Of a stretch of DNA of 64,000 bases, positions 25,343-25,538 are shown in pieces; position 1 is the stretch's first letter, and every line of letters begins with the position of its first letter. Under the pieces are notes generated by a model. That model saw only the letters and a list, made by a program, of their open reading frames with translations, was not told the origin of the DNA and made no database searches. A program made the position numbers and the translations under genes. The stretch comes from an uncultured Prolixibacteraceae bacterium (GTDB lineage Bacteria > Bacteroidota > Bacteroidia > Bacteroidales > FEN-979), in the NCBI GenBank assembly GCA_964525995.1, contig CAZGIM010000006.1, positions 88,615-152,614 of the forward strand, given 5' to 3'.

Positions 25343-25538
25343 AATTCAAAATCAGGCATTAGGCATTGGCCATTAGCCATTTGACAATAGGCAATAGGCA
25401 ATAGGCAATAGGCAATAGAGAATAGTCAATAGGGGAAAAAACAATAATTAAAATTTTTCACATTCTCAAATCCTCAAATCCTCAAATCGTTTTCCGTTTT
25501 CCATTTTCCATTTTCCATTTTCCATTTTCCATTGTCAA
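25343..25538. repeat. Word-array element, block B (full modular copy)
   Basis: The module order is AAATTCAAAATC; AGGCATTAGGCATTGGCCATTAGCCA; 7 x 7-nt AATAGGC-type units (25386-25434); GGGGAAAAAACAATAATTAAAATTTTTCACAT; 3 x 8-nt CCTCAAAT (25464-25487); 6 x 7-nt TTTTCCR (25490-25531); TTGTCAA. The block spans exactly from the FAAL stop to the convergent Memo-paralog stop. Confidence 0.9.

What the first reader, a model, noticed from the sequence alone, without database searches (positions are those of the whole stretch)
25343..25538. Dispersed modular element family built from phase-locked 7-8-nt word arrays occupying gene 3' flanks
Internal structure of this block:
- The 196-bp spacer runs stop codon to stop codon between convergent genes.
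- It is a concatenation of short tandem arrays in strict register: AGGCATT-type words, 7 x AATAGGC, 3 x CCTCAAAT and 6 x TTTTCCR.

This is not a local microsatellite, because the same module order recurs elsewhere:
- 46376-46570 has the same order in the same orientation.
- 60008-60306, 63125-63260 and 14232-14317 have it in inverted orientation.

Direct sequence evidence for a shared family:
- The 22-mer ATTAGGCATTGGCCATTAGCCA (25358-25379) recurs as its reverse complement at 60147-60168 and 60256-60277.
- It recurs with one mismatch at 46436-46457.
- The 16-mer CCATTGTCAATTGTTC (46555-46570) recurs as its reverse complement at 63141-63156.
- The module GGGAAAAA(A)CAA(T/A)AAT..ATTTTTCACAT..CTCAAAT is shared between 25433-25470 and the reverse complement of 60095-60145.

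Copies differ mainly in which word is amplified and how many times. A GC-rich variant with the octamer register GACNNGYG occurs at 48542-48573, 48789-48843 and 56458-56497. Smaller 8-nt-periodic arrays lie at 19446-19495, 43757-43800, 59160-59200 and 63657-63700. Many words share a YGGAM core (TGGAA, TGGAC, CGGAC).

The element ends abut stop codons within 0-2 nt at five genes. I know of no described repeat class with this architecture. It has no transposase, no obvious terminal inverted repeats and no CRISPR-like spacers.

Possible roles, all inferred: terminator or RNA-stability elements analogous to REP/BIME, arrays of binding sites for an RNA- or DNA-binding protein, or products of slippage-driven expansion.
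Basis: seen in the sequence. Interest (0 to 1): 0.7.

Follow-up and report, generated by a model that had tools for sequence, protein, structure and literature searches.

The report
Hypervariable intergenic word-array repeat family
The spacers between many genes of this Bacteroidales chromosome are filled by a dispersed family of chained 7- and 8-base tandem repeats that change between near-identical strains; this is a more elaborate version of the long-known but unexplained "intergenic heptamer repeats" of bacteria, with no demonstrated function.

Summary
The stop-to-stop spacer 25343-25538 is a chain of in-register 7-nt and 8-nt word arrays. The same chain, with the shared 22-mer and 16-mer, recurs in at least six other spacers of this Bacteroidales window.

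- **Spread:** about 25 more 22-mer-bearing copies sampled in two related MAGs, five of them with the non-repeated A/T-rich core. More distant relatives carry other words at the same gene boundaries.
- **Position:** arrays are almost confined to non-coding DNA and favour gene 3' flanks.
- **Polarity:** G-rich words lie 5' and C-rich words 3' on either strand (17:0). G-rich words follow stop codons (13:0).
- **Variability:** strains 97-99% identical differ in unit number, amplified word and module content. All four indels of 2 nt or more in 13 kb lie in or at arrays.
- **Operon:** a gldA-gldF-gldG operon that is compact in an outgroup has been invaded (19 to 293 nt) without a promoter box or terminator motif.

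Best reading: a lineage-specific, hypermutable composite simple-sequence-repeat family of the known intergenic heptamer-repeat kind (STRR/LSSR). It evolves by slippage, is copied between gaps, and is bounded by selection on ORFs. Function is unproven. I rate it a new variant of a known kind.

The parts
25343..25538 (.). Focal composite element, stop-to-stop between the AMP-binding enzyme gene (+) and the AmmeMemoRadiSam protein B gene (-). Modules in order: AATTCAAAATC; 12 in-register heptamers 25354-25437 (AGGCATT x2, GGCCATT, AGCCATT, TGACAAT, AGGCAAT x4, ...); the non-repeated core GGGGAAAAAACAATAATTAAAATTTTTCACATT (about 25433-25464); CTCAAATC x3; GTTTTCC/ATTTTCC x6; ATTGTCA.
14232..14317 (.). 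Short element between the sigma-70 gene (+) and the M28 peptidase gene (-). GACAATG and AAAATGG words, a CGGGGC loop, then TTTTACC/TTTTGCC words. It forms an A/U-rich hairpin. Other strains carry +7 nt or expanded GACAATG.
46361..46570 (.). Double element between the radical-SAM gene 3' end and the TRAM methyltransferase start (both on the minus strand). It overlaps the last 14 codons of ORF 46527-47645, whose tail ..DNGKRKTENGK* is encoded by array words.
48542..48573 (.). GC-rich octamer array (CAGCGGAC type) directly after the LytTR regulator stop codon. It is the left arm of an inverted pair.
48788..48844 (.). Reverse-complement octamer array (GTCCRCTG type) abutting the YchF stop codon. 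It pairs with 48542-48573 across a 214-nt non-repeat interior (z -4.8/-5.5). The orthologous spacer in SACF01 is 43 nt of ATTAGGC/AATAGGC words.
56441..56560 (.). Element between the M3 peptidase (+) and DUF4340 (-) stop codons. GGACNNGC octamers are followed by C-rich CACTATAC/CACCATGG octamers. It starts inside the last codons of the peptidase gene.
60008..60300 (.). Element filling the gldA(ABC ATPase)-gldF(ABC-2 permease) spacer on the minus strand. In sense orientation it reads: three about 55-nt higher-order units [AATCAGGAATTAGGCATTGGCCATTAGCCATTAGGGAAAAACAAAAATTCAAA], then TTTTCACATT/CTCAAATT/AGCAAATT octamers, then TCATTCAC/TCAATCAG octamers up to the ATG.
63125..63260 (.). Element after the stop of ORF 61916-63124(+). 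GACAATG x6, then C-rich CCTAATC/CCTATTG words. Contains the reverse complement of the 16-mer.
43757..43829 (.). Small DUF1573-to-YajC spacer (minus strand). In sense orientation it reads CAGGTAAA/CAGTTAAA words, then CAATAATT octamers up to the ATG. Unit number and words vary between strains.
59126..59281 (.). gldF-gldG spacer with TCGTTAA/TCGTAAA-type words (59160-59200). This spacer is 13 nt in the array-free outgroup L144.
19390..19568 (.). Spacer with degenerate TCGTAAA/TCAATC words (19446-19495). One word is an endpoint of a roughly 300-nt deletion in strain L134.
63655..63700 (.). CAGGATTT octamer array directly after the stop of ORF 63286-63654(+).
54046..54099 (.). C-rich 12-mer array CGTCCAACTCTT upstream of the M3 peptidase coding region. 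It is longer in SACF01, and the same words close the right end of elements in SACF01 (L017, L053).

Best explanation
**What it is.** A lineage-specific family of hypermutable, composite intergenic simple-sequence repeats. It belongs to the STRR/LSSR 'intergenic heptamer repeat' kind.

**Anatomy.** Each copy is a chain of 7-nt and 8-nt word arrays in a conserved order around a short non-repeated A/T-rich core. Modules are optional and unit numbers vary. The chain is polar: G-rich words (AGGCATT, AGGCAAT, GACAATG, AAAATGG, CTGATTGA, GCGGAC) lie 5' and C-rich, G-poor words (CTCAAATC, TTTTCCA, ATTGTCC, TCAATCAG, GTCCGCT) lie 3'. This polarity reads the same on either strand.

**Shown.**
- It changes by in-register slippage, by amplification of variant units and by microhomology deletion.
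- This change is far faster than substitution in the flanking DNA.

**Inferred.**
- Blocks of modules are copied between intergenic gaps by a recombination, gene-conversion or unidentified mobilisation process. That would keep paralogous copies alike.
- Arrays spread until purifying selection on the neighbouring ORFs stops them. This would explain why they abut stop and start codons and sometimes supply the stop codon and a few C-terminal residues.
- They are co-transcribed as 3'-UTR or intercistronic RNA.
- They are mainly tolerated genomic filler. Side effects are weak hairpins between convergent genes, G-poor unstructured leaders before start codons, deletions, and breaks in assemblies.
For: **Confinement to non-coding DNA**
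- Only periods 7 and 8 occur.
- 65 of 74 arrays lie outside called ORFs, although 87% of the DNA is coding.

**Family and module order**
- Five copies from different loci and genomes align, including the core (A1).
- The window copy is 84% identical over 199 nt to a non-orthologous SACF01 copy, L034.
- The 22-mer (up to 3 mismatches) has 4, 20 and 5 distinct copies in the window, SACF01 and JAQWBQ01 loci. It has none in 500 kb of more distant relatives.

**Hypermutability**
- The focal spacer is 196 nt in the window. It is 137 nt in L134 and L136 (97% and 92.5% identical), which carry +28, -59 and -28 nt changes.
- A different word is amplified in L134 (TTGACAA), L137 (GACAATG) and the window (AAAATGG).
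- All four indels of 2 nt or more in a 13.1-kb strain alignment lie in or at arrays. Substitutions are 1.8% in coding DNA and 5.1% in non-coding DNA.
- The 14232, 46376 and 43757 spacers also vary between strains that encode identical sigma-70 or YajC proteins.
- Orthologous spacers in SACF01 keep arrays, but with different words or lengths.

**Bounded by ORFs**
- The radical-SAM ORF ends inside the array in both species, with different tails.

**Invasion of an operon**
- The gldA-gldF spacer is 19 nt and array-free in L144. It is 115, 220 and 293 nt of arrays in L139, L143 and the window.
- The gldA promoter box is conserved, and the array holds no TAnnTTTG box.

**Polarity**
- Composite elements read G-rich then C-rich in 17 cases and the reverse in none.
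- All 13 arrays that start at a stop codon are G-rich in the sense orientation, against 114:106 for ordinary downstream sequence.

**Agreement with the literature**
- The same location and strand rule, and the same length variation between relatives, are published for heptamers in Xanthomonas and Nostoc (PMC4692102).
Against: - No copying mechanism was seen: no transposase, RAYT, target-site duplication or general terminal inverted repeats.
- Pure neutrality does not explain how exact 22-28-mers and the core persist in about 29 copies across three genomes while orthologous spacers diverge between strains. That needs homogenisation or constraint.
- Arrays persist at the same gene boundaries across relatives with only 44-76% identity, though with different words. 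This could reflect function.
- The A/U hairpin at 14232 is retained in a divergent strain, L148.
- The polarity rule recurs in unrelated phyla. Common descent from one polar master cannot explain that.
- All loci from SACF01 and JAQWBQ01 were selected because they contain the 17-mer, so densities there are biased.
Confidence: 0.6

Rival explanations
1. **Gene-end punctuation.** The elements are selected as bidirectional transcription terminators or insulators. A transcript entering from either side first reads G-rich words and then a C-rich, G-poor, unstructured tract that resembles a rut site, where Rho could load. In convergent spacers the two halves also pair into a long imperfect hairpin.
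For: - Arrays are enriched in convergent spacers (8 of 15) over divergent ones (4 of 24).
- The C-half 25446-25538 has 24 C and 3 G in 93 nt.
- Some elements fold better than shuffles: z about -3 on one strand for 14232, 25343 and 56458, and -5 for 48542-48844.
- The hairpin at 14232 is kept in strain L148.
- Canonical intrinsic terminators are not enriched in the window: 28 found against 21.7 +- 4.9 expected, and 30 against 22.9 +- 5.3. Some other 3'-end signal would therefore be needed.
- In Spirosoma and Heliomicrobium, similar heptamer words form inverted pairs followed by a T-run.
Against: - A 293-nt element lies inside the gldA-gldF operon with no promoter box after it. A strong terminator there would silence gldF.
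- Folding z-scores are weak (-0.5 to -2) for 46361, 60008 and 63125, and for one strand of most other elements.
- The terminator scan finds no hits inside the elements.
- Half-elements made only of G-words or only of C-words are common, 16 of 35.
- Module content differs greatly between 97%-identical strains.
Confidence: 0.15
2. **Binding-site arrays.** The arrays are tandem sites for a single-stranded RNA- or DNA-binding protein whose footprint is about 7-8 nt per monomer, such as a cold-shock-domain or S1-like OB fold. This would give a genome-wide post-transcriptional mark at gene boundaries, tuned by unit number.
For: - A period of 7-8 nt does not match the 10.5-bp DNA helix. It does match the heptanucleotide site of CspB, whose consensus is the pyrimidine-rich GTCTTTG/T (PMC1904285). 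The GTTTTCC, ATTTTCC and ATTGTCC words are T/C-rich heptamers.
- Strand-specific placement relative to genes fits recognition at the RNA level.
- Exact words persist across many copies.
- Related proposals exist for TAACTGA repeats (PMC4679880) and for Nostoc heptamers, including TTCAAAA, a word also found here (bioRxiv 10.1101/2022.06.06.494920).
Against: - Many different words (A/T-rich, GC-rich, 7-nt and 8-nt) coexist and are swapped between strains. That is hard to reconcile with one specific binder.
- The ATTGG motif itself binds CspB only weakly (PMC1904285).
- No candidate protein is linked to the elements. The S1 gene at 50152-52221 is ordinary housekeeping.
- No experiment bears on this idea.
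Confidence: 0.15
3. **Mobile element.** The family is a non-autonomous mobile element, MITE- or REPIN-like, mobilised in trans by a transposase encoded elsewhere. The tandem arrays would be secondary expansions inside it.
For: - There are many near-identical blocks at unrelated loci in three genomes.
- Different elements occupy the same orthologous spacer in the window and in SACF01.
- An ancestrally compact operon has been invaded.
Against: - No defined ends, target-site duplication or general terminal inverted repeat were seen.
- Element boundaries coincide with ORF boundaries rather than with a fixed element sequence.
- No transposase or RAYT lies in the 64-kb window.
- The core was not found in viral contigs. 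Phages gave no match, and plasmids gave one weak hit (82 nt, 75.6% identity, in a Citrobacter plasmid) that I did not examine.
Confidence: 0.08
4. **Artefact.** The arrays are an assembly or polishing artefact.
For: Short-read contigs often end inside arrays (L001, L135/L154, L137, L142, L150, L152, L153). Unit counts could therefore be mis-assembled.
Against: - The same arrays recur in independent assemblies from different samples and pipelines. Some versions are identical (L134 = L136; L147 = L149 = L151).
- The same family occurs in two separately assembled MAGs.
Confidence: 0.01

Closest known systems
Intergenic heptameric simple-sequence repeats of Xanthomonas (GGGAATC) and Nostoc (GGGGAYT) (Rehm et al. 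2015, PMC4692102); long SSRs of Mrazek et al. 2007, as cited there and in PMC4679880
   Same: - Tandem heptamers confined to intergenic DNA and lying close to ORF ends.
[quoted passage not shown]
- They are rare between divergent genes.
- The same gene neighbours are kept, but length and sequence vary extensively between close relatives.
- Inverted pairs occur, and function is unknown.
   Different: - Here many different 7-nt and 8-nt words are chained in a conserved order around a non-repeated core.
- The words are mostly A/T-rich with GG or CC doublets, so they have no G-quadruplex potential.
- Whole multi-module blocks recur at unrelated loci and in other genomes.
- The host is a member of the Bacteroidales.
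TAACTGA heptamer direct repeats of Beggiatoaceae, Cyanobacteria and five Bacteroidetes (MacGregor 2015, PMC4679880)
   Same: - Intergenic heptamer direct repeats with a strand preference relative to the adjacent ORF.
- They are present in Bacteroidetes.
[quoted passage not shown]
   Different: - No TAACTGA tandem occurs in this window.
- TAACTGA sets mostly lie just upstream of start codons, whereas this family is best defined at 3' flanks.
- No modular order or shared core was described for TAACTGA.
STRR (short tandemly repeated repetitive) heptamers of heterocystous cyanobacteria (recalled from memory; cited as Calothrix PCC 7601 in PMC4692102)
   Same: Families of tandem heptanucleotides dispersed in non-coding DNA. 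Function is unknown.
   Different: - The classical STRR units CCCCAGT, TTGGTCA and CAACAGT are absent as tandems here.
- The phylum differs.
- 8-nt words are mixed in with the 7-nt words.
BIME/REP mosaic elements of enterobacteria (recalled from memory)
   Same: Extragenic, often at gene 3' ends or between operon genes. They are mosaics of a few motif types in a defined order, with variable numbers of units.
   Different: - BIME units are about 35-nt imperfect palindromes in alternating orientation that fold into stable stem-loops, and they are linked to RAYT transposases.
- Here the units are 7-8-nt direct repeats without palindromic units. Folding is weak, and no RAYT was seen in the window.

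Membership tests
Intergenic long simple-sequence (heptamer) repeats, LSSR/STRR-like | Head-to-tail direct repeats with a unit of 5-11 nt (typically 7), longer than chance predicts | tested here: met
   TRF and the lag scan find period 7 and 8 arrays of 3-8 units at 83-100% matches. The 22-mer was absent from 100 shuffles.
Intergenic long simple-sequence (heptamer) repeats, LSSR/STRR-like | Strong bias to non-coding DNA and depletion between divergent genes | tested here: met
   In the window, all period-7/8 arrays lie in or straddle spacers. Across the window and related loci, 65 of 74 arrays lie outside ORFs. Arrays occupy 8 of 15 convergent, 13 of 46 tandem and 4 of 24 divergent spacers.
Intergenic long simple-sequence (heptamer) repeats, LSSR/STRR-like | [quoted passage not shown] 2015) | tested here: met
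   All 13 arrays that start at a stop codon are G>C in the sense orientation. Composite elements are G>C in 17 cases and C>G in none. Upstream of start codons the rule is only roughly supported, about 15 to 6 by my hand count of the table, because start calls are uncertain.
Intergenic long simple-sequence (heptamer) repeats, LSSR/STRR-like | Unit-number and sequence polymorphism between close relatives at the same locus | tested here: met
   Four loci were compared across strains 92-99% identical and across a related species.
Classical cyanobacterial STRR1-3 | The specific units CCCCAGT, TTGGTCA and CAACAGT | tested here: not met
   The window holds no tandem dimers of these units.
REP/BIME | An imperfect palindromic unit of about 35 nt that forms a stable stem-loop | tested here: not met
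   The units are 7-8-nt direct repeats. Whole-element z-scores range from -0.5 to -3.3, except for 48542-48844.
REP/BIME | An associated RAYT (Y1 transposase) in the genome | not testable with these tools
   None of the 50 window proteins scanned matches one. The whole genome is not available.
MITE | Terminal inverted repeats and a target-site duplication at constant element ends | tested here: not met
   Element ends coincide with ORF boundaries and differ between copies. Only 48542-48844 has inverted ends, and these are themselves arrays. No target-site duplication was seen.
CRISPR array | Repeats of 23-47 nt separated by unique spacers of similar length | tested here: not met
   The units are contiguous 7-8-mers without spacers.
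Intrinsic (Rho-independent) terminator | A G+C-rich stem-loop followed by a U-run | tested here: not met
   The terminator scan finds no hits inside any element. Only the weak A/U-rich hairpin at 14232-14317 resembles one.
Rho utilisation (rut) site | 60-80 nt of C-rich, G-poor, unstructured RNA upstream of the termination zone | tested here: inconclusive
   The composition fits for the C-halves: 25446-25538 has 24 C and 3 G in 93 nt, and the gldF leader has 27 C and 7 G in 118 nt. Rho dependence cannot be tested here, and the operon context argues against strong termination.
Known RNA families (Rfam 15) | A match at the gathering score | tested here: not met
   No hits in the whole window. 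Relaxed scans of two elements gave only chance-level matches with E of at least 0.25.

The most novel reading that the evidence does not exclude
The word arrays are a genome-wide 'punctuation' system of Bacteroidota that lack Shine-Dalgarno-led initiation.

- Polar chains of 7-8-nt sites would be read on RNA by an abundant single-strand-binding protein of the cold-shock-domain, S1 or Rho-like OB-fold kind.
- G-rich words would mark and protect 3' ends. G-poor words would keep leaders unstructured or load a termination factor.
- The very high slippage rate would act as a tuning knob for expression of the flanking genes.
- The same logic would explain the shared strand rule of heptamer repeats in Xanthomonas, Nostoc and Beggiatoaceae.
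Probability: 0.1. Interest if true: 0.8.

Novelty: new variant of a known kind. Interest (0 to 1): 0.45.

Why it matters
**An old open question.** Intergenic heptamer repeats have been known since the cyanobacterial STRR reports (1990, from memory), and the papers read here still give no accepted function or mechanism. This Bacteroidales family offers a richer case than earlier ones:
- a conserved grammar of many words;
- a non-repeated core that marks homology between copies;
- a strict polarity relative to ORFs;
- natural series of near-identical strains and array-free outgroups at the same loci, including an operon.

These features turn questions of origin, copying mechanism and effect on expression into concrete comparative and experimental tests.

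**Practical consequences.**
- The arrays make up about 2% of the window and about one fifth of its intergenic DNA (my estimate from the part coordinates).
- They break short-read assemblies.
- They create false ORF extensions and altered C-termini.
- They mediate deletions into genes.

These effects matter for MAG quality and annotation in this clade.

Tried and rejected
- **Rfam.** The gathering-threshold scan of the whole window gave nothing. Relaxed scans of two elements gave only chance-level matches. No tRNA or tmRNA is present.
- **Phages, plasmids and viral contigs.** Phages gave no match. Plasmids gave one weak hit (82 nt, 75.6% identity, in a Citrobacter plasmid) that I did not examine. 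Viral contigs gave two hits to the 17-mer, neither in a word array (apparently chance, unique-sequence context), and none to the core.
- **Promoters inside the arrays.** The sigma-70 scan gives only chance-level hits built from TTGACA-containing words. The Bacteroidetes -7 box TAnnTTTG is absent from the gldA-gldF array on both strands, yet present and conserved upstream of gldA.
- **Stable RNA hairpin as a general property.** Rejected, because most z-scores are weak.
- **'Stop codons in all three frames' as the cause of polarity.** It holds for the AATAGGC, TTGACAA and CTGATTGA words. It fails for the CGGAC octamers, which hold no stop codons, and for Xanthomonas GGGAATC (PMC4692102). The 3' halves are also not free of TTG start codons.
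- **Y-box ATTGG as a cold-shock-protein site.** Weakened, because PMC1904285 reports weak binding of ATTGG.
- **Source genome.** It is not itself in genome contigs. The metagenome scan returned no relative above 66% amino-acid identity for the Memo-like gene.
- **Transposase or RAYT.** None among the 50 window proteins scanned against Pfam.
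Full report

Yes. The block 25343-25538 runs from the TGA of ORF 23615-25342(+), an AMP-binding enzyme, to the stop of ORF 25539-26690(-), a Memo-like protein that sources name 'AmmeMemoRadiSam system protein B'.

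Tandem Repeats Finder reports three arrays in it:
- 7.0 copies of a heptamer at 25385-25433;
- 3.0 perfect copies of an octamer at 25465-25488;
- 6.3 copies of a heptamer at 25490-25533.

Read in a single register, 25354-25437 is twelve consecutive heptamers: AGGCATT, AGGCATT, GGCCATT, AGCCATT, TGACAAT, AGGCAAT x4, AGAGAAT, AGTCAAT, AGGGGAA.

The 22-mer occurs four times, three exactly and one with a single mismatch, and never in 100 shuffles. The 16-mer occurs twice exactly. A lag scan of the whole window finds strong periodicity only at 7 and 8 nt, plus one 12-nt array. All period-7/8 arrays lie in or straddle the 9.6% of the window that is non-coding. The other listed sites are as described.

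By my estimate from the part coordinates, the elements total about 1.27 kb. That is about 2% of the window and about a fifth of its intergenic DNA.

**2. Organism and context**

- A T9SS sorting domain in the M28 peptidase shows Bacteroidota.
- Source names on homologues say Bacteroidales.
- A gldA/gldF/gldG-like ABC operon is present.
- The 50 ORFs scanned are ordinary housekeeping genes or have no Pfam match. There is no transposase, RAYT, CRISPR or RNA gene.

**3. A real dispersed family with a grammar**

A scan of one genome per species for the 17-mer ATTAGGCATTGGCCATT returned 52 loci.
- 22 loci came from one MAG, SACF01, which is labelled 'Alphaproteobacteria bacterium INTA.CYC.164'.
- 4 loci came from 'Bacteroidales bacterium STF2_223' (JAQWBQ01).

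In these two genomes the flanks show the same order of modules as in the window:

> [GTTTCAGG]n [CTCAAAGN]n AATTCAAA(A)TCAGGC ATTAGGC ATTGGCC ATT(AGCC ATTAGGG) / TGAC [AATAGGC]n GGGAAAAA(A/G)CAATAATTAAAATTTTTCACATT [CTCAAATC]n [G/ATTTTCC]n [ATTGTCC/ATTGTCA]n [TTCACTCA/ATCAGTCA]n [TCGTAAA]n [GTCCGCTCTTC]n

Every module is optional and variable in number.

- Five copies from different loci align through a non-repeated A/T-rich core (alignment A1).
- The window's focal element is 84% identical over 199 nt to a copy at a non-orthologous SACF01 locus, L034.
- The 22-mer and the core are limited to these three genomes. Allowing up to 3 mismatches, the 22-mer has 4, 20 and 5 distinct copies in them, and the core has 1, 5 and 0. 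Neither occurs in 500 kb from more distant relatives.
- SACF01 is a close relative of the window organism. L031 is syntenic with window 46475-55650 at 81-92% nucleotide identity.

**4. Polarity**

Every composite element has G-rich words in its 5' half and C-rich, G-poor words in its 3' half. This property is unchanged by reverse complementation.
- Across the window and the two related MAGs, 17 elements read G>C and none reads C>G. The rest are half-elements.
- As a consequence, all 13 arrays that begin at the stop codon of an ORF of at least 150 codons are G>C in the sense orientation. Ordinary downstream 42-mers split 114:106.
- Before start codons the words are C-rich and G-poor in the sense orientation. 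The gldF leader has 27 C and 7 G in 118 nt. The DUF1573-YajC spacer follows the same pattern. Over all loci this is noisier, about 15 to 6 by my hand count of the table, because start calls are uncertain.
- Arrays occupy 8 of 15 convergent, 13 of 46 tandem and 4 of 24 divergent spacers of at least 80 nt.
- Rehm et al. report the same rule for Xanthomonas and Nostoc heptamers (PMC4692102).

**5. Evolutionary behaviour**

*Near-identical strains*
- For the focal spacer, L134, L135, L136 and L137 are 97.3%, 98.6%, 92.5% and 97.1% identical to the window.
- L134 and L136 share a 137-nt version that lacks the core, two CTCAAATC units and the 22-mer. They amplify TTGACAA.
- L137 amplifies GACAATG, and the window amplifies AAAATGG.
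- A relative at 76% identity (L138) still starts with TTGACNATGG words after the stop codon.
- In a 13.1-kb alignment of the window with L134, substitutions are 1.8% in coding and 5.1% in non-coding DNA. All four indels of 2 nt or more (+28, -59, -28, -307) lie in or at arrays, and 28 equals 4 x 7.
- The 28-nt loss lies between the near-identical words CCTATTG and CCTAATG. I read this as in-register slippage.
- Three more spacers (14232, 46376 and 43757) vary in unit number, word and module content between strains that encode identical sigma-70 or YajC proteins.

*Related species*
- One orthologous spacer in SACF01 keeps the same element with different unit counts.
- Another is 43 nt of ATTAGGC-type words where the window has 303 nt with inverted CGGAC-type arrays. 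Both run stop-to-stop.

*ORF tails*
- The radical-SAM ORF ends inside the array in both species.
- Its tail is ..RTIEN* in SACF01, with the TGA taken from the word TTGACAA, and ..RTIDNGKRKTENGK* in the window.

*More distant relatives*
- Relatives at 44-66% amino-acid identity also carry period-7/8 arrays directly flanking the Memo-like gene, but with other words (GGGTGACA, GAAGTGAT, TCGTAAA, TGGTGCCA, GGATACT). There are 45 arrays in 500 kb.

**6. The operon test**

| Locus | aa identity of the gldA-like ATPase to the window's | gldA-gldF spacer | Content |
|---|---|---|---|
| L144 | 77% | 19 nt | no arrays; gldF-gldG spacer is 13 nt |
| L139-L141 | 94% | 115 nt | GACAATG words, then TCA-type octamers |
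| L143 | 88% | 220 nt | arrays |
| window | - | 293 nt | arrays |

- The gldA promoter region, with a Bacteroidetes-type TAnnTTTG box (a consensus recalled from memory), is conserved in all four.
- The intra-operon array holds no such box on either strand.
- I infer that the array was inserted or grown inside an ancestrally compact operon and is transcribed through. This argues against strong termination as its general role.

**7. Structure tests**

Whole-element RNA folding was compared with dinucleotide shuffles:

| Element | z-score (+ strand / - strand) |
|---|---|
| 14232-14317 | -1.9 / -3.1 |
| 25343-25538 | -0.5 / -3.2 |
| 46361-46570 | -1.9 / -0.9 |
| 48542-48844 | -4.8 / -5.5 |
| 56458-56560 | -1.2 / -3.3 |
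| 60008-60300 | -2.2 / -0.6 |
| 63125-63285 | -0.5 / -0.8 |

- At 48542-48844 the terminal inverted octamer arrays pair with each other.
- The predicted pairings are 'ladders' of GG/CC pairs once per unit.
- No canonical terminator motif lies in any element, and such motifs are not enriched in the window.
- The small 14232 element is the best hairpin candidate. Its A-tract/stem/T-tract form survives in the divergent strain L148.

**8. What it most likely is and how it works**

*Shown*
- It is a homologous, dispersed, polar chain of word arrays.
- It evolves by in-register slippage, by re-amplification of variant units and by microhomology deletion, at rates far above the background.
- Its edges coincide with ORF edges, and it can supply stop codons and short protein tails.
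- It has invaded an operon.

*Inferred*
- Blocks are copied or homogenised between spacers by recombination, gene conversion or an unknown mobilisation.
- Spread is limited by selection on ORFs.
- The arrays are transcribed with their neighbours.
- Most copies are tolerated filler.

*Unexplained*
- The polarity rule across phyla.
- The restriction to periods 7 and 8.
- The persistence of exact 22-28-mers among paralogues despite the hypervariability of orthologous spacers.

*Rivals*
- Bidirectional Rho or hairpin terminators.
- Arrays of sites for a single-strand-binding protein. The heptanucleotide site of CspB (consensus GTCTTTG/T, PMC1904285) makes the T/C-rich heptamers plausible targets, but ATTGG binds weakly.
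- A MITE-like element.
- An assembly artefact.

**9. Comparison with known classes**

This is the same kind of object as the intergenic heptameric SSRs of Xanthomonas and Nostoc (PMC4692102), the TAACTGA repeats that include five Bacteroidetes (PMC4679880), and the cyanobacterial STRRs. It shares their location, strand rule, variability and lack of known function.

It differs in these respects:
- 7-nt and 8-nt words are mixed;
- many words are chained in a conserved order;
- a non-repeated core is present;
- multi-module blocks are shared among unrelated loci and genomes;
- none of the published units occurs here as a tandem.

It resembles BIMEs only in being a mosaic. It fails the tests for REP/BIME, MITE, CRISPR, intrinsic terminators and Rfam families.

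**10. Verdict**

This is a new variant of a known but unexplained kind of repeat. Interest is moderate. The value lies in the grammar, the polarity and the natural strain and outgroup series, which make the old question about heptamer repeats more tractable.

Noticed in passing
window 19462-19768 versus L134 12803-12813: Strain L134 (97% identical) lacks about 300 nt. The deletion endpoints are the word TTCAATCG(G/T)TAAAC, found once inside the Lumazine_bd_2 ORF 19569-20213(-) and once in the intergenic TCGTAAA-type array. The protein is cut from 214 to 143 aa. This is an array-mediated deletion into a gene.
   Followed up: partly
window 46527-46570 (3' end of ORF 46527-47645, minus strand): The last residues of the radical-SAM protein are encoded by array words. 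The tail is ..RTIDNGKRKTENGK* here and ..RTIEN* in SACF01, where the TGA comes from the word TTGACAA.
   Followed up: yes
window 53013-54024: A HEPN gene (53256-53720) and a nucleotidyltransferase gene (53648-53998), which look like a toxin-antitoxin pair, are present here. They are absent from the syntenic SACF01 locus (1066 nt versus 109 nt).
   Followed up: partly
window 54046-54099; L031 6330-6450: A C-rich 12-mer array CGTCCAACTCTT lies upstream of the M3 peptidase coding region. The listed ORF start, TTG at 54025, is probably too early. The array is about twice as long in SACF01, and the same words end some composite elements there.
   Followed up: partly
window 60117-60305: A higher-order tandem repeat of 51-58 nt (3.2-3.5 copies) lies inside the gldA-gldF element. 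A whole multi-word block, including the 22-mer, has itself been duplicated in tandem.
   Followed up: partly
window 61234-61400 and L139, L143, L144 upstream of gldA: The gldA upstream region (TGTTAAAAATTTGTTAAA...AAAATAYTTTTGCAAAAAA) is conserved across relatives down to 77% amino-acid identity and holds a Bacteroidetes-type TAnnTTTG box. It contains no arrays.
   Followed up: partly
window 39072-42241 versus L154-L157: Strains with an identical YajC protein differ in gene content and orientation around the TonB-dependent receptor. In them an extra 172-aa ORF is present and the receptor lies on the other strand.
   Followed up: no
window 43791-44276(+) versus 43830-44309(-): The longest-ORF call on the plus strand is spurious. 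Public gene calls place a DUF1573 gene on the minus strand, so 43757-43829 is a tandem spacer and not a divergent one.
   Followed up: yes
L002-L052 (SACF01...), title 'Alphaproteobacteria bacterium INTA.CYC.164': This MAG is syntenic at 81-92% nucleotide identity with the T9SS-bearing Bacteroidales window. Its taxonomic label is probably wrong.
   Followed up: partly
L001, L135/L154, L137, L142, L150, L152, L153 and several SACF01 contig ends: Public short-read contigs repeatedly end inside these arrays. One 21-kb Logan contig ends in arrays at both ends. The family fragments assemblies of this clade.
   Followed up: partly
L009, L018 (Spirosoma), L036 (Heliomicrobium), L004, L013, L035 (cyanobacteria), L016, L010 (Planctomycetes), L021 (WOR-3), L039 (Chthoniobacterales): Heptamer arrays of the CATTRGN type occur in unrelated phyla, including high-GC genomes. 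They are often paired with an inverted array, and in Spirosoma and Heliomicrobium a T-run follows, like a long terminator hairpin.
   Followed up: no
window 5245-6747, 9040-10311, 25539-26690, 46527-47645: Components of the AmmeMemoRadiSam system are scattered across the window: a Memo+AMMECR1 fusion, a second Memo-like protein B and two radical-SAM genes.
   Followed up: no
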